Shown here piece by piece: positions 1 to 55,114 of a DNA stretch of 64,000 bases; within the stretch, counting starts at the first letter, position 1, and each line of letters begins with the position of its first letter. Both the position numbers and the translations under genes were made by a program. The notes under the pieces are model-generated. The model was not told the origin of the DNA, did no database searches, and saw only the letters and a program-made list of their open reading frames with translations. This DNA is from Rhizophagus irregularis. Its lineage: Eukaryota. The DNA is taken from NCBI RefSeq assembly GCF_026210795.1, contig NC_089435.1:1426001-1490000 (forward strand). Reading direction: 5' to 3'.

Positions 1-412
1 TACAGATTAAGAAAAGTGATATTTTCTTAAAAAATATAGGTAAGGCAAATCCACTGTTATTAATTAACAAAATATCATTGATTTTATTGATGAGCTGTTT
101 AGCACCACAAATTACTAATATGTTAATTCAGTTGGTTCGAACTGCCTTTGTTCATCACTACAACCGAAGGTAAAGATATTGATGTAATAAAAGGTCTCGA
201 TAATATAACCAAAGACTTATCTGTGTGGGAACAATATTGCTAATAATTCATTAATATAAATATCATTTTTATAATACATTAATAAAATTATGTATTAATT
301 ATTCATTTAATATATTATTCTTTATTAAGCGACTTAAAAATTTAAGTTCAATGTAGTAAAAACTTGACATAAATATCGTTACAATGTGTCCAAATTGCCC
401 TATTAAACTTAC

Positions 413-2250
413 TTAGATTTGTATAGTTAGAGGAAACAGTTCGTTAATGCAACTACCAAATTTTTCACATAATTCTATAAAAGTTTTCGCAATACTTATC
501 GTTTTAATATATTTTATCAAAGGTTTCATTTGGGAAATTTCTAATATAAATTTTTTAATTCGTGTTATAATATCAAATAAATCTTGTAAATGTAAATAAT
601 TTTTAATATTAAAAAAATCTTCTCTATCTTCACTATATTCTTTAAGACTTCGTATGGCTGATTCTGCAGCATGGACTTGTTTTTTTAATATGTCACAAAT
701 TTGTTTTCTATGTCTAGAAGCTCCTGCTACTAATTCGATGATTTCATTAAAAATATTTCCAATTTCATTAATTAAAGAAATAAATTTTGGAACTGGGGCA
801 TTGACAGCATTGACTAGTATAAAAATAATTAAATTATTAATAATAAAAATCGTTGTTATTAATCAATATAATTAATATTAAACTTACTTGGATTTGGATA
901 ATTAGAAGGAATAGATAAATCATCATTATCATTATTTTTTGAATTACTTTTGACATCAATATGATTGTGCACATTATGTTGCGGAGATTGTGCATCCTCA
1001 ATTTTTAAATGAATTAAAATTTCATGTACTTCTTCATTATTTTTTGAATTACTTTTGACATCAATATGATTGTGTACATTATGTTGCGGAGATTGTGCAT
1101 CCTCAATTTTTAAATGAATTAAAATTTCATGTACTTCTTCAATATCGGGTCTTAATTTTGGATCGTCATCCCAACATATTTGATAAAGTCTTTGATACTT
1201 TAGAGGTGTACCTTCAATTGGATTTTCTCTATTACCATCTTTAATATGATCGGTAAGTAACTTTTGTGGATAGCCAGAAAAAGGACGATGGCCACTTGAT
1301 ATTTCCCATAATAAAATACCTAAACTATAGATATCGGACTTCTTATCTTTTTTATAGTTGATAATTTTAAAACATTGTGGTTCAATATATTCAACCACCC
1401 CATATCTATTACCCACTGAATCAGTTGTAACTTCCGCCAACTTTTTAGATAATCCAAAGTCAGCAATTATTAAGTTTCCATTATTTACCAATATATTTTT
1501 TGAGTGCTACAAAATAATGACAGTATTAATTTAAATTATCGAAACCAAAATCACGAATGAAATACTATTAAGTAAATACTCCTTTACCAAGTCTCTATGG
1601 ATTATTTCTTTGAAATGTAAAAATTTCAGACCATCGGTAATATCCAATGCCATTCGAATTTTATCATTCCATTTCAAGGAAGCAAAATTTTTGTTCAAAT
1701 AACCTTTTAAATTTCCTTCGTTAGCATATTCCAACACCAAAATATTATACTTGGGATCTATTAATTATAAATATAAATAAGTTAGATTAAACTGTATAAA
1801 TAAATTATTATTAAAAAATAATCTTAACATAAACCTTTTGTTATTCCCAGACAACGATTGATGTTTGGATGATTACCAACTTCGTAAAGGAGTTTCAACT
1901 AAAAAAAAATATGATAAAAAACAAAATTTTAAATTTTATTTTTATATACTGTACAACATAAAAATTATGGTAAAAAACAAAATTAATTTTATTTATATAT
2001 ACTGTACAACATAAAAAATGATTTCTACCTCCTTTACAAACTCATCATTAAACTCATCATGTTCCTCCTCTGAATTTTCATTACAAATAATTTTTAATGC
2101 GACTAATCCCGTATTAGCCAAATCTGCTTTATTCACTATACCAAAACTTCCTCTACCAATTATAGTGATTTGACTAAATTTATCTAGTTCAAAATAACGG
2201 ATATATCCATTTTTAATCTTTTCTTTAACCCATTCTTTTACCGAAGTCAT
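413..2250 (-). CDS. Tyrosine-kinase-like protein kinase with a C-terminal MLKL/HeLo-like helical-bundle domain (5 exons, ~491 aa)
   Basis: Exons 2250-2029, 1898-1835, 1757-1588, 1506-888 and 813-413, all with GT-AG introns; total 1476 nt, in frame. Kinase motifs GRGSFG, VALK, HRDL|HSKN, DFG and SDIYSLG. The last exon reads INAVNAPVPKFISLINEIGNIFNEIIELVAGASRHRKQICDILKKQVHAAESAIRSL...ELCEKFGSCINELF. Without the last intron the ORF stops at 859. Confidence 0.8.
931..1140 (-). repeat. In-frame 105-bp tandem duplication (EEVHEILIHLKIEDAQSPQHNVHNHIDVKSNSKNN x2)
   Basis: 931-1035 and 1036-1140 are nearly identical (gtgcac vs gtgtac is the difference I see); the peptide appears twice in ORF 859..1491. 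Confidence 0.95.
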
Positions 2251-4830: not shown

Positions 4831-5324
4831 ATGATTAATTTAAGTGATGTCAAATTTTTTTTATATATTATAGAATAAAAACTTATATTATTTTGCGTTT
4901 ATTTTCTCAACAACTAGTGATCAAGATTAAATTAAGATTAGAATTTATATATTCGTTATTAACGAATGATATTTTTAAGACTGTAACAAAAAAGAATTAT
5001 AAACTAACAATAATTTTATTTTATAAATATGTTAAATAGTAATTTAATGCATTTTATACATTCATTTTTGTAAGAAATGCAATTACTTCTTTTTATTTAA
5101 ATCACATGAACGGCAAATTTTATCATTACTTTTAAAGGAATTTCTCAACGCAGATCAGTGCATCGGAAAAATTATGGCCCGCAAATATTTTTTTATTGTA
5201 ACTTCTACTTTTGGTTATCAGTATTCCTTTTAAGTAACTCATTCATGAAAGTTTTCGTATAAAAAACATTTGTCTAGAAAAATAATAATTTTTTTAGTAA
5301 AACAAATTTCTAAAATAAAAACAA

Positions 5325-8300
5325 ATGGAAACCAAATTCAGTAAATCTAATACCTCAGTTACTGATATAGTAAATACCAAAAATTGTTTATATTGTAATA
5401 AACCCTTTACTGAAGAATTATGGTGTAAAGAATGTATTAATTCTTTAGAAAAATCAGCAGAAAATGGTAATAAAGTAGTGATGTTTAATTTAGCCAAAAG
5501 GTATTACAATGGGGAAGGAACAGAAAAGAATTTAGAAAAAGCCTTCTATTGGTATCAAAAAGCAGCAGAAAATGGGTTCACTGATTCAATGCATGATCTA
5601 GCCAATAGATATTATAGTGGAGAAGGAACAGAAAAGAATTTAGAAAAAGCCTTTAATTGGTATCAAAAAGCAGCAGAAAATGGTTTCACTAAAGCAATGC
5701 ATAATTTAGCAAGTAGATATTATAGTGGAGAAGGAACAGAAAAGAATTTAGAAAAAGCCTTTTATTGGTATCAAAAAGCAGCAGAAAATAGTTTCACTGA
5801 TTCAATGCATTATTTAGCCATGTGTTATGAAGATGGAGAAGGAACAGAAAAGAATTTAGAAAAAGCCTTTTATTGGTATCAAAAAGCAGCAGAAAATGGT
5901 TTCACTGGTTCAATGTATAATTTAGCAAATAGATATTATAGTGGAGAAGGAATAGAAAAGAATTTAGAAAAAGCCTTTTATTGGTTTCAAGAAGCAGCAG
6001 AAAATGGCTTAGCTTATGCAATGAATAATTTAGCTGTATGTTATGGAAATGGAGAAGGAACAGAAAAGAATTTAGAAAAAGCCTTTAATTGGTATCAAAA
6101 AGCAGCAGAAAATGGTTTCACTAAAGCAATGCATAATTTAGCAAGTAGATATTATAGTGGAGAAGGAACAGAAAAGAATTTAGAAAAAGCCTTTTATTGG
6201 TATCAAAAAGCAGCAGAAAATAGTTTCACTGATTCAATGCATTATTTAGCCATGTGTTATGAAGATGGAGAAGGAACAGAAAAGAATTTAGAAAAAGCCT
6301 TTTATTGGTATCATAAAGCAGCAGAAAAAGGTGCTAATGAATCAATGTTTAGTTTAGCCATGTATTATGAAAATGGAGAAGGAACGGAAAAGAATTTAGA
6401 AAAAGCACTTTATTGGCATCAAAAAGCAGCAGAAAATGGTTTCACTGATTCAATGCATAATTTGGCAATCAAATATTATAGTAAAGGAGGAGCAGAAAAG
6501 AATTTAGAAAAAGCCATTTATTGGTATCAAAAAGCAGCAGAAAATGGCTTCAATGGTTCAATGCATTATTTAGCAATGTGTTATGAAGATGTAGAAGGAA
6601 CAGAAAAGAATTTAGAAAAAGCCATTTATTGGTATCAAAAAGCAGCAGAAAATGGTTTCACTGATTCAATGCATAATTTAGCAAATAGATATTATAGTGG
6701 AGAAGGAACAGAAAAGAATTTAGAAAAAGCCATTTATTGGTATCAAAAAGCAGCAGAAGATTGTTTCACTAATTCAATGCACAATTTAGCCATGTGTTAT
6801 GAAAATGGAGAAGGAACAGAAAAGAATTTAGAAAAAGCCATTTATTGGTATCAAAAAGCAGCAGAAAATGGTTTCACTGATTCAATGCATAATTTAGCCA
6901 ATAGATATTATAGTGGAGAAGGAACAGAAAAGAATTTAGAAAAAGCCTTTTATTGGCGTCAAAAAGCAACAGAAAGTAACAAAATAGATTTTAAAAATGA
7001 AGATGAATTATGTAATATATGCAACCAACTATATACTAATTACCAGTGGTGTCAACAATGTAATGCTAAACAATTTCAACATGATTTTTCAAAGTGGACC
7101 AGTAAAAATGAATTTATTGATAAATTTATTCAAGATTCACAACTAAATGCCAAAAATAGTTATGAAGTTTTAGAATGGATAGCTTATGATAAATTGTCAA
7201 ATATTAATTATTATGATAAAGGAGGATTTAGTGAAATTCATAAAGCTATCTGGTTAGATGGACCTATTTTTAGTTGGAATTTTGACAAACAACAATGGAA
7301 TAGACAATTAAGCTATGAGGTTATTCTTAAAACACTTAATCATTCATCAAATTTAAATAGTAATTTTCTGGATGAGGTATATATATCATTTATATTTATT
7401 AGCAAATTTTTTTCATTTACAAAAATTAATTTTGTTTTATTATTTATACAGTGGAAATATCATTATAATTGTCAGAAAAAATCATTTTCAAAGTTTATTC
7501 AATTTTTTGGATTTACCCAGGATCCAAATAATTTAAATTATATAATAGTAATGAGTTATGCAAAAAAAGGATGTTTAAGAAAATGTTTATCTGATATAAT
7601 TAAATTTAAATGGCAAGAAAAGTTACAATTATTGAAAAAAATTGTATTAGGGCTCAAAGTAATTCATGAATCAAATTTAACTCATGGTGATTTTCATGAT
7701 GGTAATATTTTAATATCAGATAGCTATAATGAGTTATTTATTATTGATTTAGGATTATGTAAACCTGTAAATGATTTACAAGATTCTGACAATAAAATTA
7801 AAGAAATTTATGGAGTATTACCTTATATGGCACCTGAAACATTAAGACAAAAACCCTATACACCAGCAAGTGATATTTATAGTTTTTCAATGATAATGTG
7901 GGAATTTACATCAGGTATTCCTCCATTTAATCATGTAGCACATGATCATCACCTCATTTTGAGTGTCTGTGAAGGGAAACGCCCTGAAATTATTGAAAAT
8001 ACTCCAAAATGTTATATAGATTTAATGAAAAAATGTTGGGATTCAGATTCTTCCAATAGACCAACCATAACAATGCTTGAAGATATTATATCTGAGTGGG
8101 TTAGATGTATTAATAAATATTATACAATTAACAGGGATGGAAATTATAAATATGAAGTACCTAATATTGATAATAAATTAAAGGATGATATGATTGAATT
8201 TATAGAATCAAACAAAACTTTAGTACATAAGCAAGTAAATGCTTCTATTATACAATCTCATACACAAGCATACTATACAAGTCGTAAACTTACTGAAATC

Positions 8301-8348
8301 TTAGTTCATGAAAAGTCTGATTGTTTTGAATGTATAGTTAAAATTTAA
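5325..8348 (+). CDS. Sel1-repeat (14x) tyrosine-kinase-like kinase; one in-frame intron at 7377-7451 (~982 aa after splicing)
   Basis: ORF 5325..8348 with 36-aa Sel1 repeats GEGTEKNLEKAFYWYQKAAENG and kinase motifs KGGFS, VILK, HGDFHDGN, DLG, APE, SDIYSF. The 75-nt GTATAT...ATACAG segment after LDE sits where the related kinase at 21701-28508 has its intron. Confidence 0.93.
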   Translation: METKFSKSNTSVTDIVNTKNCLYCNKPFTEELWCKECINSLEKSAENGNKVVMFNLAKRYYNGEGTEKNLEKAFYWYQKAAENGFTDSMHDLANRYYSGEGTEKNLEKAFNWYQKAAENGFTKAMHNLASRYYSGEGTEKNLEKAFYWYQKAAENSFTDSMHYLAMCYEDGEGTEKNLEKAFYWYQKAAENGFTGSMYNLANRYYSGEGIEKNLEKAFYWFQEAAENGLAYAMNNLAVCYGNGEGTEKNLEKAFNWYQKAAENGFTKAMHNLASRYYSGEGTEKNLEKAFYWYQKAAENSFTDSMHYLAMCYEDGEGTEKNLEKAFYWYHKAAEKGANESMFSLAMYYENGEGTEKNLEKALYWHQKAAENGFTDSMHNLAIKYYSKGGAEKNLEKAIYWYQKAAENGFNGSMHYLAMCYEDVEGTEKNLEKAIYWYQKAAENGFTDSMHNLANRYYSGEGTEKNLEKAIYWYQKAAEDCFTNSMHNLAMCYENGEGTEKNLEKAIYWYQKAAENGFTDSMHNLANRYYSGEGTEKNLEKAFYWRQKATESNKIDFKNEDELCNICNQLYTNYQWCQQCNAKQFQHDFSKWTSKNEFIDKFIQDSQLNAKNSYEVLEWIAYDKLSNINYYDKGGFSEIHKAIWLDGPIFSWNFDKQQWNRQLSYEVILKTLNHSSNLNSNFLDEVYISFIFISKFFSFTKINFVLLFIQWKYHYNCQKKSFSKFIQFFGFTQDPNNLNYIIVMSYAKKGCLRKCLSDIIKFKWQEKLQLLKKIVLGLKVIHESNLTHGDFHDGNILISDSYNELFIIDLGLCKPVNDLQDSDNKIKEIYGVLPYMAPETLRQKPYTPASDIYSFSMIMWEFTSGIPPFNHVAHDHHLILSVCEGKRPEIIENTPKCYIDLMKKCWDSDSSNRPTITMLEDIISEWVRCINKYYTINRDGNYKYEVPNIDNKLKDDMIEFIESNKTLVHKQVNASIIQSHTQAYYTSRKLTEILVHEKSDCFECIVKI
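5469..6980 (+). repeat. Coding tandem array of 14 x 108-bp Sel1 units
   Basis: Counted in the translation; units 3-4 recur almost identically as units 7-8 (432-bp offset). Confidence 0.95.
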
Positions 8349-10554: not shown

Positions 10555-10904
10555 TTTATATTAATTATGTATGAAATTTCATACATACGTGGTATCATGC
10601 ATTATTTGTCATATGATTTTAAGTAAACATTTTTTTTCTTTTTGAAGATAAATTTAGAAGTGCTGCGTAAGATATAAATAAATAAAGTATAAATCATGAA
10701 TGGTCAATTATAAGTTAATTTTTTACAGTATTGTTTATGAAAATTTTTACAGTATTGTTAATGCAAATCATTAATATTTCCATTTTCCTTTCATGATGAT
10801 TTGCATACTACATATGCAGGGCACATATTTGTTTGCATACTTTACGCCATCATCCGTCCTAAAAGTATAAATTAAAGTTACAAAGCCTAATTTTCTTTTT
10901 TTTT

Positions 10905-10935
<31 letters not shown>

Positions 10936-10936
<1 letters not shown>

Positions 10937-12363
10937 TGCCGGAACTTAATAAAGACGTAATTTTCTTAATATTAAAAGAATTACAACAAAATGATGTAAA
11001 ATCTCTTTATCCATATCTTTTGATTAATAAAACTTGGTGTGAAACTACAGTACCAATTCTATGGAAGAATCCTGTTAATCGTTATTACGAAATTAATAAA
11101 GTAAATAATAACTTATTTAATGTAATTATTTCACATATATCAGAAGAATCAAAAGAAAATTTGAAGAATCAAGGAATTGAAATTTTTACAAAAACTTATA
11201 AACGACCTTCATTTAATTATATTAGTTATTGGAGACATTTGGATTTATTATTTTTACAACTCATGATGGATTTTTTTTTAAAATATAAAAATATTGAAAG
11301 GTTCAAATTTTCTATTATAGGAAAAGAAATATTGAATCTATTCAATAAAAATACAAAATTTATTTTTTTGAATTTGATTAATTCTCAAAGGTTCAATACA
11401 TTCCATATTTCAGGGACTGAAAATTGTTTTTCAGAACTTGAAACTTTTCATTGTAATGATTTTATCAATTGTAATACTTTAAAAAGATTAGCTATTATAA
11501 ATACATCAATTAAAGAATTGAAATTTGAAATTGACAATAATATCGATAAACCTGGAATCGTTAGATTGATTGAAGTTCAAAAAAATCTAAAAAATGTTTA
11601 TTTAATTCTTAATTATACATATGTTGTTAATGAATCATATCACACAACAATAGAAAATTCGCTTATTAAATGTGCAAATACTGTTCAGTATTTGAGAATA
11701 GATTGGAAACCTTACACAAAATTTCTTTCATATTTTGTAAATTTATTAAGCTTAGAAATAAAAGCTCCTCATGACGCAAATTGGAGCCATTTAGAAGAAA
11801 TATCTTTACCTCTTTTAAAGTTTTTAAAAGCACATTCCATACCATCTAGAGTGTTGACAAGTTTAATTAATAATACAAAAGCGCATCTCATTGAAATTAG
11901 TATTTTTTATCAAGGTATTGATGATGGAAAACTTATCAAAACAATTTGTCAAAGTTGTCCGAATCTTAGCTATCTTAGATTATCAATGTATAATACTAAT
12001 GATATTTTGAAATTTGAAGATCTATTGATTAATTGTCTATCCTTAAATAGATTAGAAATTACCGGGATGAATGTTTCTAATGAATTTAATTGGGATATGC
12101 TATTCATAATATTGGCAAAGTTTTCACCAATTGGATTATTTAAGTTTAAATTTTCTTCTTATGGGAGTAAATTCAAATCAAGTTCTTTAAAATTATTTTT
12201 TGATAATTGGAAGAATAGATATCCTATGTTATTACAAATAATTTCAGCGGAACATATAAGCAATGATCGAAAGAAATTAGAAAATCTGGTACAAATATAT
12301 AAAGTAAATGGTATAGTTGAAAAATATAACATTGATGGTGATGATTTTGAAGGGTTTAAATAG
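10936..12363 (+). CDS. F-box / RNI-like LRR protein (475 aa), family A
   Basis: N-terminal LNKDVIFLILKEL...LYPYLLINKTWCETTVPILWKNP F-box-like motif, followed by LRR-like segments (CPNLSYLRLS); intronless. Confidence 0.88.
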
Positions 12364-21700: not shown

Positions 21701-24700
21701 TTAGATCACATGGTCTAAACATTGAGAATGGTCATCATCATCATATTTTGGAAGATCTTTTGTAAAGGAATTAAGTAATCGAGATATATAAATAGCTTGT
21801 GGATGGGTAGTTATTTGATAATTTTTAGTGGATATAGAATTTGCTTCTCTATATTCTTCTGCTTTCTTGAATTGCATTCCAATTTCTTCCATGAAAAAAT
21901 CTTCTCTCTTGAATTGCACTTCAATTACTTCATTTTCTTCTATGAAAAAACCTTCTCTCTTAAATTGCATTTCAATTTCTTCATTTTCTACTATGAAAGT
22001 ATCTCTTTTATATGAAATATGAAATGATGTGATTAATTTATCTATCTCAAAAATATTTGGTCTGTTGTTTGGGATTGAATCCCAACACTTTTTCATTAAC
22101 TCGATATAACATTTTGGTGCTTCCGTTTCACTTATTTCAGGTCTGACTCCATTACAAATATCTAATGCAAGACAATGATCATGTGCACGATTGTAAAAGG
22201 GTTGTTTTCCAGTTGCTACAAAATACATTATCATACCAAAGCTATAGATATCTGCTGCTTGAGTATAAAGTTTTCCTCTTAATACTTCAGGAGAGACATA
22301 AGGCATGACTCCATAAATTTTAGTTTCATCTATATTATCAACCTCTCCACATAAGCCCATATCTGAAATCGATATACAATTACTAAAATCATTTATAATA
22401 TGCAATAATAATATATTTCCTGTATGAAAATCACGATGAACTAAATTTTTTTGATGAATTTCTTTAAGACCATTAATAATATTAAGCAATGCAGATAATT
22501 TATCTTCCCATCTAAAATATACACAATTTTCATTTATCCAATGATTAAAATTTCCATCTTTTGCATATTGGAGAACCATAACATATTCTTCTGTATCTAA
22601 ATTTTGAGATATTCCATATATATTAAGAATATTACTACTTTTATTTATTGAGTATTCCTTAACCTAGTAAAATTTATTTATAGTAAGTAATAATTACTAG
22701 TATATCATGTCTAAAAAATCATTTGCAATGGAAAATTCTTATAAATAATTAATTTAAAGAAATTTCATACCTCATTTAAAAATTTATCAGTAATATTTTG
22801 GGAATTATGTAAACATTTCAAGGCAATTACTCTATTTGGATTCCTATTATATAATTTTCTATCTACATTATATTCTAAGGGGCCATCCTTCCATTTTGCA
22901 GAATATACTGTAGAAAAGCCACCCTCACCTATTTTCTTAATATTACTAAACTGACTGTATGGTATCCATTCAAATACTATTTCATTATAGTCATTTATTT
23001 TTAATCGCATTTCTTGAATGCAATTATCAATTTTTTTATTTCCACTTGTACAATTAAGAACCAGAATATAATCTCCTGTATCTGGATTTTGAGATATTCC
23101 ATACAATACTTGAAATGCTTTGTATTTTGTTGGATATTTCTTAGCCTAAATACAAATAAAGAGATTGTAAATAAATAATTAAAAGTATTTAGATATTTAA
23201 TGAAATTTCATACTTCATTTATTAAAGAATCAATGGATTCTTGTGAATTGTGTAAACATTTTAAAGCAACTTCTTTATTTGTATTTCTTGTATATCCACA
23301 AGTCTCTCCATTATGATATAATGAACCATCCTTCCATATTGCTGAATATACTGTTATAAGGCTATTTTTGCCTTTCTCTTTAATTTCATTAAACTGATTG
23401 TATGGTATCCATTCAAGCACTACTTCATCATAGTCATAATCATTTATTATTAGTTGTCTTTCATGGATGAAATCATCAATTTTTTCATATCCACTAATCC
23501 ATGTATTATTTTTTTGAACTAAGATATAGTCTCCTGTATATGGATTTTGAGATATTCCATACAATGCTTGAAATTTTTTATGTTTTGTTGGATATTTTTT
23601 AGCCTAATTATAAATAAAAGAGATTGTAAATACATTAATCAAAAGTATATAAATAATTAAGGAAATTTTATACCTCATTTATTAAAAAATCAATGGATTC
23701 TTGTGAATTACATAAACATTTTAATGCAACTTTTTTATTTGAAGTTCTTGTATAATAACCCCGTATCCAATCATCCTTATAGCATAATGGACCATCCTTC
23801 CATATTGCTGAATATACTGTTATAAGGCCATTTTTACCTGTTTCTTTAATTTCATAAAATTGATCATATGGTATCCATTCAAGCACTATATCATCTTTAT
23901 TGTAATTAGGTTTTAATTGAACTTCTTGAATGAAATCATCAATTTTTTTATTTCCATTGATCCATATATGATTATTTTGAACCAAAATATAATCTTCTGT
24001 ATTTGGATTTTGAGATATTCCATACAATGCTTGAATTGCTTTATAATTGGTTGAATATTTTTTAGCCTAATTGTAAATAAAAGAGATTGTAAATATAATT
24101 AATAAAATATTTTTAAATATTTAAAGAAATTTCAAACCTCATTTATTAAAGAATCAATGGATTCTTGCGAATTATGTAAACATTTTAAAACAACTTCTTT
24201 ATTTGAACATCTTCTCCCTAGTCCTTGAAAGAAATTATGGTACAATGGACCATCCTTCCATATTGCTGAATATACTGTTATAAGGTCATTTTTGCCTTTC
24301 TCTTCAAATTCATTAAACTGATTATATGGTATCCATTCAAGCACAATATCATTATAATCCTCCATATTTAATTGTCTTTCTTGAATGAAATCATCAATTT
24401 TTTCATATCCACTGATCCATACATTATTTTTTTGAACTAAGATATAGTCTCCTGTATCTGGATTTTGAGATATTCCATACAATACTTGAAATGCTTTATA
24501 ATTTGTTGGATATTTTTTAGCCTAATTGTAAATAAAAGAAATTGTAAATATGTTAATCAAAAAAATATTTAAATATTTAAAGAAATTTCATACTTCATTT
24601 ATTAAAGAATCAATGGATCCTTGCGAATTATGTAAACATTTTAAAGAAACTTTCTTATTTAAATCTCTTGTACAATTACTCCAACTATGCTCCCTGTATA

Positions 24701-27700
24701 ATGGACCATCCTTCCATATTGCTGAATATACTGTTATATAGCTATTTTTACCTGTCTCTTTAATTTCATTAAACTGATTATATGGTATCCATTCAAGCAC
24801 GATATCATTATAATCCTCCATATTTAATTGTCTTTCTTGAATGAAATCATCAATTTTTTCATATCCACTGATCCATACATTATTTTTTTGAACTAAGATA
24901 TAGTCTCCTGTATCTGGATTTTGAGATATTCCATACAATACTTGAAATGCTTTATAATTTGTTGGATATTTTTTAGCCTAATTGTAAATAAAAGAAATTG
25001 TAAATATGTTAATCAAAAAAATATTTAAATATTTAAAGAAATTTCATACTTCATTTATTAAAGAATCAATGGATCCTTGCGAATTATGTAAACATTTTAA
25101 AGAAACTTTCTTATTTAAATCTCTTGTACAATTACTCCAACTATGCTCCTTGTATAATGGACCATCCTTCCATATTGCTGAATGTACTGTTATAAGGCTA
25201 TTTTTACCTATTTCTTTAATTTCATTAAACTGATTATAAGGTATCCATTCAAGTACTATGTTATCACAATACATTCTTTTTAATTGACTTTTTTGAATGA
25301 AATCATCAATTTTTTTATTTTCACTAGTCCATATATTTTGAACCAAAATATAATCTCCTGTATATGGATTTTGAGATATTCCATACAATACTTGAAATGC
25401 AATATGTTTATGTTTTGTTGGATATTTTTTAGCCTAATTGTAAATAAAAGTGATTATAAATATAATTAATAAAGTATTCAATTATTTAAAGAAAGTTTCA
25501 TACCTCATTTATTAAAGAATTAATAGATTCTTGCGAATTATGTAAACATATTAAAGCAACTTTTTCATTTGAATTTCTTGTATAATTACTCCAACTATAC
25601 TCCTTGTATAATGGACCATCCTTCCATACTGCTGAATATACTGTTATGAGACCACTTTTGCCTGTTTCTTTAATTTCATAAAATTGATCATATGGTATCC
25701 ATTCAAACACGATATCATTATAATCCTCTATTTCTAATTGTCTTTCTTGAATGAAATCATCAATTTTTTCATTTCCACTTGTCCAAATAAGAACCAAAAT
25801 ATAATTTCCTGTATTTGAATTTTGAGATATTCCATATAATGTTTGAAATGCATTATTTTTTGTTAGGTATTTTTTAGCCTGAATATAAATAAAAGAGATT
25901 GTAAATATATTAATCAAAAGTATAATAATTAAGGAAATTTTATACCTCATTAATTAAATAGTCAATGGATTCTTGTGAATTATATAAACATTTTAATACA
26001 ACTTTTTTATTTGAATCACTTGTATATTCTCTATTTTGTTTATTCCAATAAAATGGGCCATCCTTCCATATTGCTGAATATACTGTTACAAGACCATTTT
26101 TTCCTATCTCTTTAATTTCATAAAATTGATCATATGGTATCCATTCAAGCACTATATCATTAAAATGCGCTAATTTTAATCGTCTTTCTTGAATGATATC
26201 ATCAATTTTTTCATTTCCGCTTGTCCAAATAAGAACCAAAATATAATCTCCTGTACTTGGACTTTGAGATATTCCGCATAATACTTGAAATGTATTATGT
26301 TTTGTTGGGTATTTTTTAGCCTGAATATGAATAAAAGAGATTGTAAATATATTAATCAAAAGTATAATAATTAAGGAAATTTTATACCTCATTAATTAAA
26401 TAGTCAATGGATTCTTGTGAATTATATAAACATTTTAATGCAACTTTTTTATTTGAATCTCTCATATAATTACTCCATCCATACTCTAAGCATAATGGAC
26501 CATCCTTCCATATTGCTGAATATACTGTTACAAAACCATTTTTTCCTATCTCTTTAATTTCATAAAATTGATCATATGGTATCCATTCAAGCACTATATT
26601 ATTAAAATGCGCTATTTTTAATCGTCTTTCTTGAATGAAATCATCAATTTTTTCATTTCCACTGAACCATATATAACTATTTTGAACCAAAATATAATCT
26701 CCTGTACTTGGACTTTGAGATATTCCATATAATACTTGAAATGTATTATGTTTTGTTGGATATTTTTTAGTCTAAATATAAATAAAAGAGATTGTAAATA
26801 TATTAATCAAAAGTAAATAAATAGTTAAGGAAATTTTGTACCTCATTTATTAAAAAATCAATGGATTCTTGTGAATTATATAAACATATTAACGCAACTT
26901 TTTTATTTAAATCTCTTTTATAATCACTCCATTTATCCTTCATATATAATGGACCATCCTTCCATACTGCTGAATATACTGTTATAAGGCCATTTTTACC
27001 TGTTTCTTTAATTTTATAAAATTGATTATATGGTATCCATTCAAGCACGATATCATTATAATCCTCTATTTTTAATTGTCTTTCTTGAATGAAATCATCA
27101 ATTTTTTCATTTCCACTGAACCATATATGATTGTTTTGAACTAAAATAAAATCTCGTGTATTCGGATTTTGAGATATTCCGCATAATACTTGAAATGCAT
27201 TATGTTTTGTTGGATATTTTTTAGCCTAATTATAAATAAAGGAGATTGTGAATATATTAATCAATAGTATATAAATATCAAGAAAATTTTATACCTCATT
27301 TATTAAAAAATCAATGGATTCTTGTGAATTATATAAGCATTCTAAAGCAACTTTTTTATTTGAATCTCTTATATAATTACTCCATCCATACTCTAAGCAT
27401 AATGGACCATCCTTCCATATTGCTGAATATACTATTATAAGGTCATTTTTGCCTGTTTCTTTAATTTCATAAAATTGATCATATGGTATCCATTCAAGCA
27501 CTATATCACTATAATCTATTTCTAATTGTCTTTTCTGAATGAAATCATCAATTTTTTCATTTCCACTGAACCATATATAACTATTTTGAACCAAAATATA
27601 ATCTTTCGTATCTGGATTTTGAGATATTCCATACAATGCTTGAAATGCTTTATGTTTTGTTGGACATTTTTTAGCCTAATTTTAAATAAAAGAGATTGTA

Positions 27701-28508
27701 AATATAATTAATAAAGTATTTAAATATCATTTAAAGAAATTTCATACCTCATTTATTAAAGAATCAATAGATTCTTGCGAATTATGCAAACATTTTAAAG
27801 CAACACTTTTATTCGAACTTCTTCTCCATAGTCCTCCGTAATTACGGTACAATGGACCATCCTTCCATATTGCTGAATATACTGTTATAAGGTCATTTTT
27901 GTCTATCTCTTTAATTTCATCAAACTGATTGTATGGTATCCATTCAAGCACTGTATCTTTATAGGCATTTATTATTAATTGTCTTTTCTGAATGAAATCA
28001 TCAATTTTTTCATTTCCACTGAACCATATATAATTATTTTGAACCAAAATATAATCTTCCATATCCGGATTTTGAGATATTCCATACAATGCTTGAAATG
28101 CTTTATGTTTTGTTAGACATTTTTTAGCCTAATTGTAAATAAAGAGATTGTAAATATAATTAATAAAGTATTTAAATATTTAAAGAAATTTCATACCTCA
28201 TTTATTAAAGGATCAACGAATTCTTGTGAATAATGTAAACATTTTAAAATAACTTTTTCATTTGTTTTTCTTGTATAACTATTACACAAATCACGATATA
28301 ATAGACCTTCCTTCCATATTGCTGAATATACTGTTATATGGTCATTTTTGTCTATCTCTTTAATTTCATTAAACTGATTGTATGGTATCCATTCAAGCAC
28401 TATATTATCTTTATTATCATTGGTTTTTAATTGCCCTTCTTGAATGAAATCATCAATTTTTTCATTTCCACTGGTCCAATTTTCTAAAAATATGTTTTGA
28501 GAAAACAT
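21701..28508 (-). CDS. Giant tyrosine-kinase-like kinase with 12 tandem orphan kinase N-lobes (14 exons, ~1954 aa)
   Basis: Exons 28508-28197, 28128-27748, 27675-27295, 27225-26842, 26771-26388, 26320-25946, 25878-25504, 25433-25050, 24977-24594, 24521-24138, 24066-23674, 23603-23214, 23145-22771 and 22663-21701. All introns are GT-AG and phase 0, and every exon length is divisible by 3 (sum 5865). The final module has GEGGFS, IALK, HRDFHTGN, DMG, SPE and ADIYSFG. Confidence 0.88.
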
Positions 28509-28564
28509 TGTTTTCAAAAGCCCAAAATTTTTTCTAAACAAAAATCTTATTTATAGTAAATTAT

Positions 28565-33159: not shown

Positions 33160-33469
33160 AACAGCATTAATAGCAACAGCAATAGTAACGGTAACAGACA
33201 TTAAATAACATTTTATTATATATACGTGTAAAAAGTAGTGGGCCAAATATGATTTTTTTTTTTCTAAGGGTATGAAAAATGGAGATATTAAATTATGAAA
33301 CATGAGCCGATAATTTCCGTTAATGATTTACACACTGCATAAATAATGTACTACTTCCAAAATAACTAACTTTGTTACACGTTGCACACTTTACGCCGTC
33401 CATCCTATATAATAGAGATAATAAAGGCTACCAGTTAATTTAATTTTTTTTTTTATTTATTTAAAAAAA

Positions 33470-34930
33470 ATGTTGAAGCTTAATAAAGACGTAATTTTTT
33501 TAATATTAGAAGAATTACAAGATGATAATAAGTCACTTTATTCATGCCTTTTAGTAAATAGAACTTGGTGTGAAACAACCGTTCCGATTTTATGGAAGAA
33601 TCCCGCTAGACAATATTATTCAACCAACAACGCTTATAATATTTTATTAAATGTAATACTTTTACATTTATCGGAAGAATCAAGAAATAATTTGAAATAT
33701 CAAGGAATAAACCTTTTTATGAAACCATATCAAAGACCTTTATTTAATTATATTAGTTTTTGGAGACATTTGGATTTATTTTTTTTAGAACATATGATAA
33801 ATGTTTTTGATACGTATACTGTAAAATCCAAAATTTTTATTATAGAAGATGAGATATTTAAATTATTTATTAATGGAAATACAAATTTTGTTTCTCTTTT
33901 TATTCCAAAATTACTTAATCCTCGTATATTCAATATTTTAGGGAATGAACATTGTTTTTCAGGACTTGAATACTTTTATTGTGATGATAATACCAACAGT
34001 AATATTTTAGAAAGATTGGCAAAGATAAGCACATCAATTGAAAAATTGAGAGTTGATATTAGATATAATGATGTTGATAATCCTGGAATCGTTGAATTAA
34101 TTGAAGGTCAAAAAAATTTAAGAGATGTCAAATTAATCTATAATAATTCATATCTTAATAATGAGTCATATCGAAAATCACTTGAAGAATCGTTGATTAA
34201 ATGTGCGGATACTATTCAATATTTGAGAATAGATTGGAATCCTGTTACAAATTTTCTTTCAACTCTCGTAAATTTAGTAAGTTTAGATTTGAATTTACGC
34301 CTCACACATTTATTACTTGAAACAAATTGTCATTTAGAAAAAGTTTCTTTACCCGTTTTAAAAATTTTAAGAGCACAGCAAGTCCCACCAAAGGTTTTAG
34401 CAAGTTTAATTGAAAGTACAAAAGGACATCTTATTGAAATAAGTATTTTACATCAAAGTGTTGATGATGGAAAACTTATCCGAACAATTTGTAAATATTG
34501 TCCAAATCTCTGTTATCTTAAATTATCAATATTTACCAAGAGTCTCACAGAATTTGAAAATTTATTAATTAGTTGTCAATTTTTAAATGAATTAGAAATT
34601 ATTGGTAGTTATAATAATATAAATAATTTTAATTTTAATGAATTATTTAATTGGGATAAATTATTTTCAATCTTAACAAAATCTTCACCAATTAGTTTAT
34701 TTAAATTTAAATTTTTTTCTGCTTGGAAAATCGAATCGGAATCTATAAGATTATTTCTTGATAATTGGAGGGATAGATATCCTATGTTATTACAACTTTT
34801 TTTAACAAAAAATAAGAATATGGAGCAATTACATCAGCAGCAACATCAGAAATTAGAAGATATAATAGAACATTATAAAAAAATTGGCGTAATTAAGAAA
34901 TATTACATTGATGAGGTTTTAATATTCTAA
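33470..34930 (+). CDS. F-box / RNI-like LRR protein (486 aa), family A
   Basis: MLKLNKDVIFLILEELQDDNKSLYSCLLVNRTWCETTVPILWKNP; collinear with 10936..12363. Confidence 0.9.
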   Translation: MLKLNKDVIFLILEELQDDNKSLYSCLLVNRTWCETTVPILWKNPARQYYSTNNAYNILLNVILLHLSEESRNNLKYQGINLFMKPYQRPLFNYISFWRHLDLFFLEHMINVFDTYTVKSKIFIIEDEIFKLFINGNTNFVSLFIPKLLNPRIFNILGNEHCFSGLEYFYCDDNTNSNILERLAKISTSIEKLRVDIRYNDVDNPGIVELIEGQKNLRDVKLIYNNSYLNNESYRKSLEESLIKCADTIQYLRIDWNPVTNFLSTLVNLVSLDLNLRLTHLLLETNCHLEKVSLPVLKILRAQQVPPKVLASLIESTKGHLIEISILHQSVDDGKLIRTICKYCPNLCYLKLSIFTKSLTEFENLLISCQFLNELEIIGSYNNINNFNFNELFNWDKLFSILTKSSPISLFKFKFFSAWKIESESIRLFLDNWRDRYPMLLQLFLTKNKNMEQLHQQQHQKLEDIIEHYKKIGVIKKYYIDEVLIF

Positions 34931-37940: not shown

Positions 37941-38937
37941 TTAAATTATTACATTATCTCATTTTCCGTGAAGTTTGATAATTTGAGCATACGGAACTTC
38001 AAATAACGACAAAAAACATTCTTTAATAAAGTATAATTTTTACATTTAATTTGCCCATGAATAATTTTGTTATGTCTAGTGTTTTATTTCAACGTGCTTT
38101 ATAAGGTTCCAGTTTCTTTATTTGGATTGAGCGGGATTCCTTTATTAATTTTGATTCACGTACAGCATGAATATATTTTATATATATATATACATTTAAA
38201 TTCTATATACTTTTACTGTATGTATTTTAAAATTTTTCTTTTATTTCAATTTAAAAGATTATTGAATATATATGATATTGTTTTATATACCTCATAGTTT
38301 ACAAGACACAGTATTATGCGCTTATATTGTTTATTGTTGTTCAGATATGGTTTATTATTGTTCTACATGTATAGTGTCACATATTATTTTATATTACAAA
38401 AGCTTATTCAGTTATCCCGTATATGTGTAACCTTATTTTAAAACAAAAAGGGAAATTATAATCAAACATATAGACGATCATTCATCATTGATGTATCTAT
38501 TGTAAGATATTATTCTTACTTTTATTTATGGTTTAAAGAAATAGAATAATATCAAAAGTTTCAAAGTTATGATACTAGCAAGATATAAAGGCAGTAAAGA
38601 ACGTATTAAATTTATTTTCATTTTGAACCACATAATTTTTTAAATGTTTATATATTTTTTTTTTTTAGAAAATAAAAAAAGCCTATCGATCAACCATGTG
38701 ATCGTCAAAGCATGTGATTCTCGTAAATCTCCATGCAGGTAAGATCGTAACCAATCAGAAATTTTTGGAAAAAGCTCATTTTGTTACTAAAACAAAAATT
38801 CATTGAACGCAGATCTGTTGTGTATTTATTACACCAAATACGCCAACTATATTAAATATAAATAAAAAAGTTATTGATTTTTTAATAGCTTGGCAAACCC
38901 TTTTTTGTCTTTTTTTAAGAAAAAAAAAGAAAAAAAA

Positions 38938-40446
38938 ATGTCAACACTAGTTGAAGACGTACTTCGATTAATATTAGAAGAACTAAAATATGATAGAATA
39001 TCACTTCATTCATGTATTTTAGTTAATAAAACTTGGTGTAAGATGACGGTACCAATTTTATGGAAAAATCCTGGACAAAATCTTTTAAATGATAATTCAA
39101 AGAATTTATTATTCAATATAATAATTTTACATTTATCAAATGAATCAAGAAATTTTTTAAAGAAACAAGAAATCGATCTTTTTAAAGATATAATTGAATC
39201 ATATAAACATCCTTTATTATTTAATTATATAAGTTATTGGAGATATTTAAATATACATCTTTTAAAAAGTATGATAGTTTCAATAAAAAATATTAAAAAT
39301 TTTGATAAAACTGAAATACCTATTATAAGAAATGAAATATTTAATTTATTTATTAATAATAATAGAAATACAAAATTTTTACGTCTTTGTTTTCCTCAAC
39401 AATTTGATTATCAATTACATCGTATTTCAGGGGCTGAACATTGTTTTTCAAAACTTGAATCATTTCGTTGTTATGCAAATACCAATAAATATATTTTAGA
39501 AGGTTTAGCAGGGATAAGTAAATCTATTAAAAAATTAATATTTGATATTATGTATAGTATTAATTCTGGAATAATTAAATTAATTGAAGCACAAAATAAT
39601 TTAAAGGAAGTTCATTTTATTGATCATACAATAAATTTAAGAGATGAATCTTTTAGTAGACCACTTGAAGAATCATTAATTAAACATGCTAATACTATAC
39701 AATATTTAAGAATTGATTGGAAACCTAATACAGAAATTCTTTCATATCTTGTAAATTTAATAAGTTTAGATATAAATTTAAGTTTAGTGAGAGATATAAA
39801 TTGGAATCATTTAGAAAAATTATCTTTACCATTATTAAAATTTTTAAGAACTCAAAAAGTTCCATCTAGAATTTTATCAAATATAATTGAAAATACAAAA
39901 GGTTACCTTACTGAAATTAGTATACTTTATGAAGGTATTAATGATAAAAAACTTATTCCAACAATTTATCATAATTGTCCAAATCTTAAATATCTTAAAT
40001 TATCATTATCTGTTAGAAATATTATAGAATTTGAAAATTTATTAAATAATTGTCAACTTTTAAATGGATTAGTTGTTGATATATATGATCATATTATTAA
40101 ATTTGATTGGGATAAATTATTTAAAATATTATCAAAATCTTCACCAATTAGTTTAATTAAATTTAAATTTTCTTCTAATAGAATAATTTCTTTGGAAACT
40201 TTAAAATTATTTTTTGATAATTGGAAAAATAGAAATCCAATGTTTTTACATATTATTCCAATGTATTGTTTTACAAGAGCTGAACAACGAAAACAAAAAC
40301 AACAAGAATTACAACAATTAGAAAATTTAATTAAAGAATATAAAGTGAAAGAAATGATTAAAAGATATTATGTTGATTCACATGGTTCTGCATTTGAAGA
40401 TTTTGAGTGGATTCAAAGAAGATCTGATGCTTACATTGAATTTTAG
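38938..40446 (+). CDS. F-box / RNI-like LRR protein (502 aa), family A
   Basis: The ATG at 38938 (MSTLVEDVLRLILEELKYDRISLHSCILVNKTWC) aligns with paralog starts; intact to stop. Confidence 0.9.
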   Translation: MSTLVEDVLRLILEELKYDRISLHSCILVNKTWCKMTVPILWKNPGQNLLNDNSKNLLFNIIILHLSNESRNFLKKQEIDLFKDIIESYKHPLLFNYISYWRYLNIHLLKSMIVSIKNIKNFDKTEIPIIRNEIFNLFINNNRNTKFLRLCFPQQFDYQLHRISGAEHCFSKLESFRCYANTNKYILEGLAGISKSIKKLIFDIMYSINSGIIKLIEAQNNLKEVHFIDHTINLRDESFSRPLEESLIKHANTIQYLRIDWKPNTEILSYLVNLISLDINLSLVRDINWNHLEKLSLPLLKFLRTQKVPSRILSNIIENTKGYLTEISILYEGINDKKLIPTIYHNCPNLKYLKLSLSVRNIIEFENLLNNCQLLNGLVVDIYDHIIKFDWDKLFKILSKSSPISLIKFKFSSNRIISLETLKLFFDNWKNRNPMFLHIIPMYCFTRAEQRKQKQQELQQLENLIKEYKVKEMIKRYYVDSHGSAFEDFEWIQRRSDAYIEF

Positions 40447-51502: not shown

Positions 51503-54500
51503 TCAAACTAAATTAACAAAATATTTAAAAATATTAGTTCAATATCAATCCTTAATAAGCAAAGAATTATAAACTTACTCTGTAAATTTAAAGAGATTTG
51601 AGTAGACTCAATTTGAATAGACTCGGCACTAGCTTGCAATTCTGAAGTTAAATTGTCACTACCTTTAATAAACAGTTTTATTTTATCTTCATCAATATAT
51701 TAGTAATAAAAATAAATATATGGATGTGAATAATAAATAAATACCTTTGACTAACTTGTTAGTAACAATATTTACAAAACCCATTCTTTCAAATTCATCC
51801 AATATTTCATTAATAGTTGGTCTTTGTTCAGGTTCTTGGTTCCAACAATTTTTATAGAGTTTTTCATATTCTTTAGGGGTACCTAGAATTGTAACCTCAC
51901 GAGCACCATTACTAATAGAAACAGCAAGTGCAACTTTATTATCATTATCTTTAAATGGAGGATATCCACTAGAAATTTCCCACATCAATACACCAAAACT
52001 ATAGACGTCTGAAGATTTAGTATATGGAAAATTTGGATCTACAAAACGTCTTGGTTCCATATAAGCAACAACACCAAAATTACCAACATATGCTGTTGAA
52101 GTTTGATTATTTTGATTTTTTGAAATACCGAAGTCCATAATTTTAGCATTATTTTCATGAATAGCTATATTCTTAGAATGCTAAAATAAAGTAAACTATA
52201 TAAATACATTTAGTACTATAATGATATTAGGTAAAAATACTAATACTTACAAGATCTCTATGTAAAATATTTTCATTATGCAAATAATTTAATCCATCTG
52301 CAATTTGAAATGCTAATTTTTTCTTATCATTCCATGTCAAATCCTTAAAATTATTTTTGAGATAATTTTGAAGATCTCCGTCATTGGCATATTGCATAAT
52401 AAGAAGATATTCATTTGTTTTTGGATCTAAAGAAAAAATTTATAAGAAATCTTTAAAAAAAATAAAAAATAAAAATGCAATGTAGATAAATATTTCAAAT
52501 TACCTGAACTAATACCAAAACAACGTATAATTCTGTCACTATAATTAAGGTGCATATGCATTTTTAGTTCATGAATAAATGCATCTAATAAATCATTCTT
52601 AATATAAGTTGTATTAGTTAATTTTTTACAAATAACATAATTATTAGTTTTAGTCCAAATTGCCTTTGATATTGTTCCAAATCCTCCCGCATAAAGTCGT
52701 TCTGTATTTTTTAGTTCTTTATAAGATATAAATTTAACTTTTTCATATTTTAGAGCATTTTCAATCCATTTATTTGCACTTAAACATTCTTTTTCTGCAT
52801 TTTTAGACCAATTAACGTGCTTTTCTAATACCTTTTTCACTTTACCAATTCTATAAAGAAATCTAGGTCTATACTGAACATTACTAATTCCTTGCTGAGC
52901 TGCTTTTTGATACCAGTAAGAGGCTTCTTCTAAATTCTTTTCTGTTCCATTTCCATTTTCATAGCATATTGCTAAATTATTCATTGCAACTTCATTGCCA
53001 TTTTCCGCTGCTTTTTGATACCAATAAAAGGCTTTTTCTAAATTCTTTTCTGTTCCTTCTCCATTTTCATAGCATATTGCTAAACTATTCATTGCAACTT
53101 CATTGCCATTTTCCGCTGCTCTTTGATACCAATAAAAGGCTTTTTCTAAATTTTTTTCTGTTCCTTCTCCATTTTTATAACATATGGCTAAATTATTCAT
53201 TGAAACTTCATTATCATTTTCAGCTGCTTTTTGATACCAATAAAAAGCTTTTTTTAAATTCTTTTCAGTTCCTTTTCCATTTTCATAACATATGGCTAAA
53301 CTATTCATTGCAACTTTATTACCATTTTCTGCTGCTTTTTGATACCAATAAAAGGCTTTTTCTAAATTCCTTTTTGTTCCTTCTCCATTTTTATAGCATA
53401 TGGCTAAACTATCCATTGCAACTTCATTACCATTTTCTGCTGCTTTTTGATACCAATAAAAGGATTTTCCTAAACTCTTTTTTGTTCCTTCTCCTTTTTT
53501 ATAACATAAGGCTAAATTATTCATTGCAACTTCATTACCATTTTCTGCTGCTTTTTGATACCAATAGAAAGCCTTAGCTTCATTATTTTCAATACCAATT
53601 CCTTCCTCATAACATAAGGCTAAATTAAACATGGCAGCTTTATTACCATTTTCTGCTGCTTTTAGATACCAATAAAAGGCTTTAACTTCATCCCTTTCAA
53701 TACCAATTCCTTTCTCATAACATAAGGCTAAATTAAACATTGCAGCTTTATTACCATTTTCTGCTGCTTTTTGACACCAATAAAAGGCTTTGACTTCATC
53801 TTTTTCAATACCAATTCCTTCTCCATAACATAAGGCTAAATTAGACATGGCATCTTTATTACCATTTTTAGCTGCTTTTTGATACCAATAAAAAGCTTTT
53901 TCGAAATTCTTTTCTGTTCCTTCTCCATTTTCGTAACATACTGCTAAACTATTCATTGCTTTAGTATAATTTTTTTCTGCTGCTTTTTGAAACCAATAAA
54001 AAGCTTTTTCTAAATTCATTTCTGTTCCTTCTCCATCTATATAACATAATGCTAAACTATTCATTGCTTTAACATAATTTTTTTTTGCTGCTTTTTGATA
54101 CCAATAAAAGGCTTTTTCTAAATCCTTTTCTGTTCCTTTTCCATTTTCAAAACATAAAGCTAAATTAAGCATTGCAGTTTCATTGTCATTTTCTGCTGCT
54201 TTTTGATAAAAATAAAAGGCTTTTTCTGAATTTTTTTTTGTTCCCTTTCCATTTTCATAACATATGGCTAAATTAAGCATTGCAACTTCATTGTCATTTT
54301 CTGCTGCTTTTTGATACCAATAAAAGGCTTTAACTTCATCCTTTTCAATACTAATTCCAAATTGGAAACAATAACCTAATTTAAATTGTGCATTTTTATC
54401 CTTATTTTCTGCTGCTTTATGATACCAAAGAAAAGCTTTTTCTAAATTCTTTTCTGTCCCAATTCCATTTTCATAACATAAGGCTAAATTATTCATTGCA

Positions 54501-55114
54501 ACTTCATTGCCATTTTCTGCTGCTTTTTGATACCAATAATAGGATTTTTCTAAATTCTTTTCTGTTCCTTTTCCATTTTCATAACATAAGGCCAAACTAT
54601 TCATTGCAACTTCATTACCATTTTCTGCTACTTTTTGATACCAATAATAGGCTTTTTCTAAATTCTTTTCTGTTCCTTTTCCATTTTCATAACATAAGGC
54701 TAAACTATTCATTGCAACTTCATTATCATTTTCTGCTGCTTTTTGATACCAATAAAAAGCTTTTTTAAAATTCTTTTCTATTCCTTTTCCATTTTTATAA
54801 CATATGGCTATATTGTTCATTGCAACTTCATTACCATTTTCTGCTGCTTTTTGATACCAATAAAAGGCTTTTTCTAAATTCTTTTCTATTCCTTCTCCAT
54901 TTTCATAACATATGGCTAAATTATTCATTGCATATTCATTACCATTCTCTGCTGCTTGTTGATACCAATAAAAGGCTTTTTCTAGATTCTTTTCTGTTCC
55001 TTCTCCATTTACATAACATATTGCTAAATTAAACATTGCAACTTTATCACCAATTTCTGCTGCTATTTGATACTGGTAAAATAATTTATTTTCATTGTTT
55101 TCAAAATCAGACAT
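51503..55114 (-). CDS. Sel1-repeat (20x) tyrosine-kinase-like kinase (5 exons, ~1103 aa; last two exons tentative)
   Basis: Exons 55114-52504, 52426-52251, 52180-51745, 51662-51579 and 51507-51503 (sum 3312). Motifs AGGFG, VICK, HRDL|HSKN, DFG and SDVYSFG; two intron positions shared with the 413-2250 kinase. Confidence 0.88.
52889..55048 (-). repeat. Coding tandem array of 20 x 108-bp Sel1 units (plus one degenerate unit)
   Basis: Counted in the translation of ORF 52427..55114. Confidence 0.95.

What the first reader, a model, noticed from the sequence alone, without database searches (positions are those of the whole stretch)
413..887. Hidden last exon adds an MLKL/HeLo-like bundle after the kinase (reversed order)
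Seen: a GTAAGT donor at 887 and a TACTAG acceptor at 814 (74-nt phase-1 intron) join the kinase tail in frame to a stop-free ~133-codon exon that the ORF track lacks: PVPKFISLINEIGNIFNEIIELVAGASRHRKQICDILKKQVHAAESAIRSL...YLHLQDLFDIITRIKKFILEISQMKPLIKYIKTISIAKTFIELCEKFGSCINEL. By eye the amphipathic helices and the K-x-x-C-x-x-L-x-x-x-V pattern match the MLKL-N / RPW8 / HeLo-like four-helix bundles that in fungi normally sit N-terminal to kinases. Known: such bundles execute membrane-disrupting cell death and generally need a free N-terminus. Inference: a C-terminal position suggests release by cleavage, a dominant-negative or decoy role, or a recent gene fusion.
Basis: partly seen in the sequence, partly recalled or inferred. 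Interest (0 to 1): 0.78.

Follow-up and report, generated by a model that had tools for sequence, protein, structure and literature searches.

The report
Fungal kinase with tail-end MLKL bundle
In a mycorrhizal fungus, a kinase gene is spliced to a last exon that encodes a shortened relative of the four-helix bundle of MLKL-like cell-death proteins; the bundle is likely disarmed, and such back-to-front fusions likely arose several times in these fungi.

Summary
Observation confirmed. The 888/813 splice (74 nt, GT-AG) stands in transcript contigs of 4 of 4 runs laid. The exon is not hidden: the whole 491-aa protein is already a Rhizophagus irregularis gene model (P0001). The exon is an MLKL_N homologue: 58-63% identical to fungal MLKL_N proteins, and MLKL ranks 1, 2 and 5 of 48,161 chains by structure. 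The usual carriers are bundle-brace-pseudokinase proteins. Here the bundle follows a kinase with intact catalytic motifs, lacks the brace, and has lost 11 of 42 donor-conserved positions. It was likely pasted in at DNA level: host-kinase sequence flanks it on both sides. The reversed order is not unique. A second locus, shared with R. diaphanus, has a kinase that is not this one's sister, and kinase-bundle-pseudokinase genes occur in other mycorrhizal fungi. Best reading: an expressed, dispensable domain-shuffling chimera with a non-lytic bundle under relaxed constraint (0.45). The main rival is a fast-evolving bait or address domain (0.27). Release by cleavage has no support. Nine paper searches found no description of this order. 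The scan's earlier notes held nothing related.

The parts
2029..2250 (-). Exon 1: ATG at 2250, kinase N-lobe with Gly-rich loop and VALK lysine
   Evidence: joint 1898/2029 in 4 of 4 runs
1835..1898 (-). Exon 2 of the kinase
   Evidence: joints 1757/1835 and 1898/2029
1588..1757 (-). Exon 3 of the kinase, ending at HRDL
   Evidence: joint 1506/1588 in raw reads at 90% likeness and a 12-nt loose end in X5 matching exon 4
888..1506 (-). Exon 4: kinase C-lobe (DFG) and linker
   Evidence: Pfam PF07714 E 5.6e-21; linker pLDDT under 50 at residues 292-365
929..1145 (.). 105-nt (35-aa) tandem repeat in the linker, 2.1 copies; 1 to 3 copies in other models
814..887 (-). Intron 4, 74 nt, phase 1, GT-AG
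   Evidence: spliced out in 4 of 4 runs
413..813 (-). Exon 5: a few host-kinase-like codons (I-N/D-A-V-N), then the MLKL_N-like four-helix bundle, no brace, stop at 415-413
876..914 (-). Copy 1 of a 39-nt direct repeat: end of exon 4 plus the intron-4 donor
401..439 (-). Copy 2 of the repeat (33 of 39 identical): the last codons of the bundle exon, the stop, and a donor-like GTAAGT at 412
334..412 (-). 3' untranslated sequence (at least this far)
   Evidence: one X4 contig covers 334-563 without a gap

Best explanation
This is a spliced, transcribed five-exon gene whose last exon puts a brace-less MLKL_N-like bundle behind a kinase with intact catalytic motifs; the bundle was likely captured from an MLKL-like pseudokinase gene by DNA rearrangement and likely no longer kills, riding as a loosely constrained passenger on a likely dispensable kinase. 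Shown: the splice, the exon structure, the homology, the missing brace and the flanking repeat. Inferred: a P0161-like kinase gene received about 370 bp of an MLKL_N exon a few codons after its exon-5 acceptor. The insert ends in a second copy of the host's exon-4 end, which supplies the stop. The host's splice sites were reused, so no new intron was needed. The kinase is predicted active and the bundle predicted folded but tethered by a disordered linker of about 75 residues. Loss of killing is inferred from the missing brace, the blocked and altered first helix, and the decay of the family's AEHN motif.
For: Splice in 4 of 4 runs. The sister kinase P0161/P0163 (82% identical, support 100/99) has the same IDAVN after the same linker end but goes on into a second kinase. 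The 39-nt repeat matches 33 of 39; the next best place in the window scores 25, 65 other GTAAG sites at most 22, and 200 shuffles of 5 kb at most 26. The window allele lost 11 of 42 positions conserved in 32 donors, which lost 0 to 8; A32S and N35R hit 2 of 8 near-invariant columns. Window against P0006: 8 of 132 differences in the bundle, 5 of 284 in the kinase, Fisher p 0.03. Of 11 R. irregularis models of this locus, 7 skip or scramble part of the kinase and 1 more (P0274) has a scrambled activation segment; only P0001, P0002 and P0006 are whole. Kinase-then-bundle needs 7 changes among 98 active-type kinases, as expected of repeated shuffling in a high-copy family (PMC8647823, passages).
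Against: The bundle frame is open in every allele seen and in an 87%-identical relative (P0011), and the two indels in it are whole codons. That suggests selection, though a protein search finds only intact copies. At the second locus the bundle is more polymorphic than its neighbouring linker, brace and tail (15 of 124 against 2 of 167, p 1.4e-4), which plain neutrality does not predict well. The damaged kinases are read from gene models, not DNA. The last seven residues also resemble donor sequence (P0012), so the 3' breakpoint is not fixed. No function was tested.
Confidence: 0.45

Rival explanations
1. The bundle is a selected, non-lytic bait or address domain, as in plant kinase fusion proteins. 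It would bind a microbial effector aimed at the fungus's MLKL-like proteins, or bring the active kinase to MLKL-like pseudokinases, and would diversify under selection.
For: The bundle diverges about 5 times faster than the kinase at both fusion loci (log-identity ratios 5.1 and 4.75) against 0.9 to 1.7 in most bundle-pseudokinase pairs. It is more polymorphic than flanking regions at locus 2. Active-type kinases join the bundle repeatedly and in both orders (9 and 11 of 98 rows). Donor kinases mostly lack the DFG aspartate (38 of 58 domains), so an outside kinase is plausible. Kinase-bundle-pseudokinase-Sel1 genes exist (L008).
Against: The ratios compare pairs at different depths of divergence, and three donor-type pairs groups reach 1.8 to 2.7 (with P0099). 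No DNA of alleles, so no dN/dS. The brace is absent at this locus. The kinase looks damaged in most strain models. At locus 1 the excess over the linker is small (13 of 132 against 1 of 40).
Confidence: 0.27
2. The bundle folds back on its own kinase and keeps it off until a signal arrives, as proposed for wheat Pm13 (MLKL-K), where the kinase and not the bundle triggers death.
For: In Pm13 the bundle alone or with brace caused no cell death, and the authors propose self-inhibition (PMC11297308, passages). The kinase here keeps HRD and DFG.
Against: The order is reversed, the brace that Pm13's activity needs is missing, the linker is predicted disordered and varies by 35-aa units, and fast change of the bundle does not suit a fixed internal interface.
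Confidence: 0.12
3. The bundle is still a membrane-disrupting executioner, released by cleavage in the linker or acting while tethered.
For: The predicted fold covers the whole MLKL bundle from its first residue (model residue 11 aligns with MLKL residue 1). Family members tolerate N-terminal extensions. The long disordered linker would be open to proteases.
Against: No brace or pseudokinase switch, the most eroded allele of 37 compared, and the conserved F-L-P-L start is changed here and lost at locus 2. HeLo-type killing depends on the N-terminal helix (PMC10197012, passages; PMC12881547, section 18). Killing has not been shown for any Glomeromycota bundle in what I read.
Confidence: 0.08

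Closest known systems
Glomeromycota MLKL-like proteins (MLKL_N-brace-pseudokinase-Sel1; e.g. P0007, P0008, P0009; noted as expanded in Glomeromycotina in PMC8778642, passages)
   Same: The bundle is 58-63% identical to theirs and nests among them in the tree.
   Different: Here it is C-terminal, lacks brace, pseudokinase and Sel1 repeats, and follows a kinase with HRD and DFG intact.
Mammalian MLKL and Arabidopsis AtMLKL3
   Same: Predicted fold matches their four-helix bundle: 6ux8 Z 12.3, rmsd 2.5, 118 aligned; 4btf Z 12.0; 6ka4 Z 10.8.
   Different: 12-16% identity, reversed order, no brace, no pseudokinase; Z is under the 13 that the tool advises for helical bundles.
Wheat Pm13 / MLKL-K kinase fusion protein (PMC11297308 and PMC10951266, passages)
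   Same: A recent fusion of a catalytically intact kinase with an MLKL_NTD; such fusions arose at least three times in grasses, and the bundle did not kill on its own.
   Different: Pm13 has the bundle first and a brace, and a proven immune role; this gene is fungal, bundle-last and untested.
Second Rhizophagus kinase-then-bundle locus (P0165 in R. irregularis, P0023 in R. diaphanus)
   Same: Same kinase subfamily (70% identical), same order, junction at the same linker end, fast-changing bundle.
   Different: Kinases rejected as one clade (p-AU 6.7e-5); it keeps the first brace helix and a conserved tail of about 110 aa.

Membership tests
Pfam MLKL_N (PF22215) | Score at or above the gathering cut-off (27 bits) | tested here: not met
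   No hit for the window exon. Allele P0005 E 0.057, P0011 19.8 bits, donors P0007 31.9 and P0008 28.4 bits. Homology is by way of these relatives: 24 of 31 members hit at E up to 0.01.
MLKL-type four-helix bundle (fold) | Four long helices superposable on the MLKL N-terminal domain | tested here: met
   AlphaFold2 mean pLDDT 88.6; MLKL entries rank 1, 2 and 5 of 48,161. Foldseek gave no E under 0.001 (MLKL rank 11). A predicted model, built with an alignment of relatives.
MLKL proteins | Bundle at the N-terminus | tested here: not met
   Bundle at residues 360-491 of 491.
MLKL proteins | Brace helices after the bundle | tested here: not met
   The protein stops where donors begin the ADELEQLK brace.
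MLKL proteins | C-terminal pseudokinase | tested here: not met
   The only kinase is N-terminal and keeps the Gly-rich loop, VALK, HRD and DFG.
MLKL proteins | Oligomerisation and membrane disruption | not testable with these tools
   Needs expression and membrane assays.
RPW8 / HeLo domains | Profile or structural match better than to MLKL_N | tested here: inconclusive
   RPW8 and HeLo each hit 1 of 31 members; NRG1.1 CC-R Z 8.9, rank 19.
Tyrosine-kinase-like kinases (PF07714) | Profile match over the whole domain with catalytic motifs | tested here: met
   P0001 177 bits, residues 29-281; motifs. Activity itself not tested.
Kinase fusion proteins with integrated domains (plant immunity) | Intact kinase fused to an unrelated domain by a recent event | tested here: met
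Kinase fusion proteins with integrated domains (plant immunity) | The integrated domain senses an effector and starts a defence response | not testable with these tools
   No functional data; works-like comparison only.

The most novel reading that the evidence does not exclude
Arbuscular mycorrhizal fungi carry a RIPK3/MLKL-like pathway of their own. An expanded clade of active kinases phosphorylates bundle-brace-pseudokinase-Sel1 executioners, as suggested by repeated kinase-bundle-pseudokinase fusions. Truncated kinase-bundle genes such as this one are integrated-decoy sensors whose bundle diversifies to catch effectors aimed at the executioners: a fungal counterpart of plant kinase fusion proteins.
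Probability: 0.17. Interest if true: 0.82.

Novelty: new variant of a known kind. Interest (0 to 1): 0.47.

Why it matters
It shows, with transcript support, that MLKL-type bundles are not confined to N-termini, and it records a domain capture whose breakpoints can still be read. More widely, these symbiotic fungi hold MLKL-like pseudokinases and fuse them repeatedly to active kinases. A 2025 review names the extent of necroptosis-like death in fungi as open (PMC12881547, section 18); these fusions offer candidate kinase-substrate pairs to test. If this gene is only a decaying chimera, its interest is as an example of kinase-domain shuffling.

Tried and rejected
No whole genome is held for the window, so copy number and the true donor gene were not examined. 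Raw RNA reads X22-X24 (about a quarter of each run, 90% likeness) listed no 813/888 joint; depth there was near 1 and most reads were paralogue-like, so this is uninformative. No contig covered intron 4 in X2, X4, X5, X6, but contigs drop rare forms, so retention to the 859 stop is not excluded. No listed piece spans kinase to bundle; the 105-nt repeat likely breaks the contigs. A further exon through the GTAAGT at 412 was considered: X4 reads through it, and the P0161 tail found no match in 1-412. The exon alone gave no MLKL_N hit; a profile search of PDB sequences gave 2 weak unrelated hits; Foldseek gave none under E 0.001. The first metagenome scan found 182 pattern matches and 0 relatives. 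One origin for the two Rhizophagus fusions: not rejected by the bundle tree (p-AU 0.55), rejected by the kinase tree (one search had left allele P0004 out of the tested group and is superseded). A MACPF-like look of some tails (my recall, by eye) got no Pfam support. Look-ups in the scan's own findings returned two unrelated notes and then none.

Full report
Observation. The minus strand carries a five-exon gene from ATG 2250 to TAA 413. Intron 4 (887-814) is 74 nt, phase 1, GT-AG. The exons sum to 491 codons plus stop, and the exon peptide is 100% identical to the end of P0001, a Rhizophagus irregularis model of 491 aa (OCT59_027122). The species is inferred from that identity. So gene callers had found the exon. 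Five more models among the 9 hits have the same order.

Transcript evidence. Contigs of X2, X4, X5 and X6 (2 studies) each join 888 to 813 with 71 nt on the short side, and each also skips introns 1 and 2. These were 4 of the 24 runs listed, chosen for their share of words. Their type is guessed, but intron skipping shows spliced RNA. X1 holds the unspliced stretch. One X4 contig runs from 563 to 334 without a gap, so the stop at 413 is followed by untranslated sequence in that run. Raw reads of three other runs were too thin here to tell.

What the domain is. The exon alone misses Pfam MLKL_N. Its nearest non-allelic relatives (58-63% identical) hit it at E 1e-7 to 1e-4, and 24 of 31 aligned members hit it. 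A search of 1.84 billion representatives gave 194 hits at E up to 0.001, of which 150 were listed. The model has four long helices (pLDDT 88.6). Among 48,161 solved chains, two MLKL entries rank first and second and AtMLKL3 fifth (Z 12.3, 12.0, 10.8). Unrelated bundles reach Z 11.2, so the fold match alone is not decisive, but it agrees with the profile evidence. Foldseek was not significant.

The donors. Among 158 proteins, 47 were bundle-kinase, 77 bundle only (many are likely exon fragments), 10 kinase-bundle (7 of them alleles of this locus) and 5 kinase-bundle-kinase. Of 58 kinase domains lying after a bundle, 38 have Asn for the DFG aspartate, 13 have Asp and 7 were not parsed. Of 23 lying before a bundle, 17 have Asp. 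So the common fungal form is bundle-brace-pseudokinase, often with Sel1 repeats, like MLKL; its expansion in Glomeromycotina is noted in PMC8778642 (passages). The window kinase keeps HRD and DFG and is predicted active.

How the gene arose (inferred). The sister kinase P0161/P0163 shares the linker end and the IDAVN that opens exon 5, then continues into a second kinase. The bundle therefore begins inside a host exon. At its other end, 439-401 repeats 914-876, the host's exon-4 end and donor, at 33 of 39 positions; controls reach at most 26. Random 39-mers of the window often have closer copies, because the window is rich in repeats, so the argument rests on which sequence is repeated and where. 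The copy is one base out of frame and provides the stop just before the donors' brace. The last seven residues also resemble donor sequence, so short chance similarity may have guided the junction. Paralogues of this kinase carry other modules after the same linker (AIG1 GTPase, Sel1, second kinases; Pfam columns).

Recurrence. A second locus (P0165, P0171, P0226 in R. irregularis; P0023 in R. diaphanus) has the same order. The two bundles may be one clade (p-AU 0.55), but the two kinases are not (p-AU 6.7e-5, 26 rows), and the junctions differ. Among 98 kinases with active-type motifs, kinase-then-bundle (9 rows) needs 7 changes; these are gene models and some may be merged genes. On DNA, 7 of 12 metagenome loci (about 4 distinct genes) have the kinase's last subdomain in the same open frame as the bundle. 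L008 holds an active-type kinase, bundle, brace, pseudokinase and Sel1-like end in order.

Selection. The window allele has lost 11 of 42 donor-conserved positions, 2 of them by truncation; 32 donors lost 0 to 8. P0006 and P0011 lost 9. Position 35 reads N, S and R in different alleles. The bundle differs more than the kinase between alleles (8 of 132 against 5 of 284, p 0.03) and at locus 2 (15 of 124 against 10 of 284, p 0.003). Most strain models lack part of the kinase while the bundle exon is whole in all. These are protein-level counts; relaxed and diversifying selection cannot be told apart without DNA.

Mechanism. I favour an expressed chimera with a folded but disarmed bundle under relaxed constraint (0.45). 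The bait or address reading (0.27) is close behind, mainly because the bundle at locus 2 varies more than its own linker and tail. Pm13 shows that a bundle fused to an active kinase need not kill (PMC11297308, passages). An executioner role is least likely (0.08).

Literature. Nine full-text searches found no description of kinase-then-MLKL_N genes in these fungi. I saw passages of PMC8778642, 10.1101/2022.03.16.484565, PMC10951266, PMC11297308, PMC10197012, PMC8647823, PMC6123716 and PMC12881547, plus section 18 of the last; no whole text and no supplements. Supplementary architecture tables, notably of the bioRxiv NLR-effector survey, could list such proteins. The library lacks most subscription papers.

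Verdict. A real, spliced and apparently undescribed architecture, but one of several products of kinase-domain shuffling in these fungi, already present as an unnamed gene model. New variant of a known kind; interest 0.47.

Noticed in passing
L008:81-3839 (also L003, L004, L007, L009, L010, L012): Active-type kinase, MLKL_N bundle, brace, pseudokinase and Sel1-like end in one locus, with the kinase end in the same frame as the bundle: a RIPK3-plus-MLKL-like fusion. Similar gene models in R. clarus, Funneliformis and Diversispora (P0029, P0045, P0138, P0051).
   Followed up: partly
P0165 and P0023 (not in the window): Second kinase-then-bundle locus; its tail of about 110 aa has no Pfam hit and is almost invariant within R. 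irregularis (1 of 107 sites) while the bundle varies at 15 of 124.
   Followed up: partly
P0184, P0188, P0189, P0190, P0193 (not in the window): Proteins with three tandem MLKL_N bundles before an active-type kinase related to the window's kinase.
   Followed up: no
window 929-1145: 105-nt coding tandem repeat in the linker, with 1, 2 or 3 copies in different models.
   Followed up: partly
window 439-413 against P0011: P0011 ends L-I-T-Q-I where the window has L-T-I-Q-I. If single-base changes are assumed, both would be silent in the host kinase's frame. Inferred without P0011's DNA; unexplained.
   Followed up: no
window 21701-28550, minus strand: About 13 tandem exons of roughly 130 codons each, resembling kinase N-lobe pieces and matching the P0161 tail by tblastn, ahead of a kinase C-lobe at 21701-22663.
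   Followed up: no
window 5319-8348 (+) and 51692-55117 (-): Sel1-repeat kinases; the first has 14 Sel1 stretches before a kinase (Pfam), the second looks alike by eye.
   Followed up: partly
window 10891-12363, 33425-34930, 38878-40446, 59515-60951: Four related long ORFs of about 480-520 codons that look like F-box/LRR-type genes (label recalled, not tested).
   Followed up: no
P0007 residues 72-138 (not in the window): Pfam hit to the Tse2 ADP-ribosyltransferase family upstream of an MLKL_N-pseudokinase-Sel1 protein; may be a merged gene model.
   Followed up: no
L012:317-813: An MLKL_N copy after a kinase end whose frame is broken midway by stops, showing that such copies do decay.
   Followed up: no
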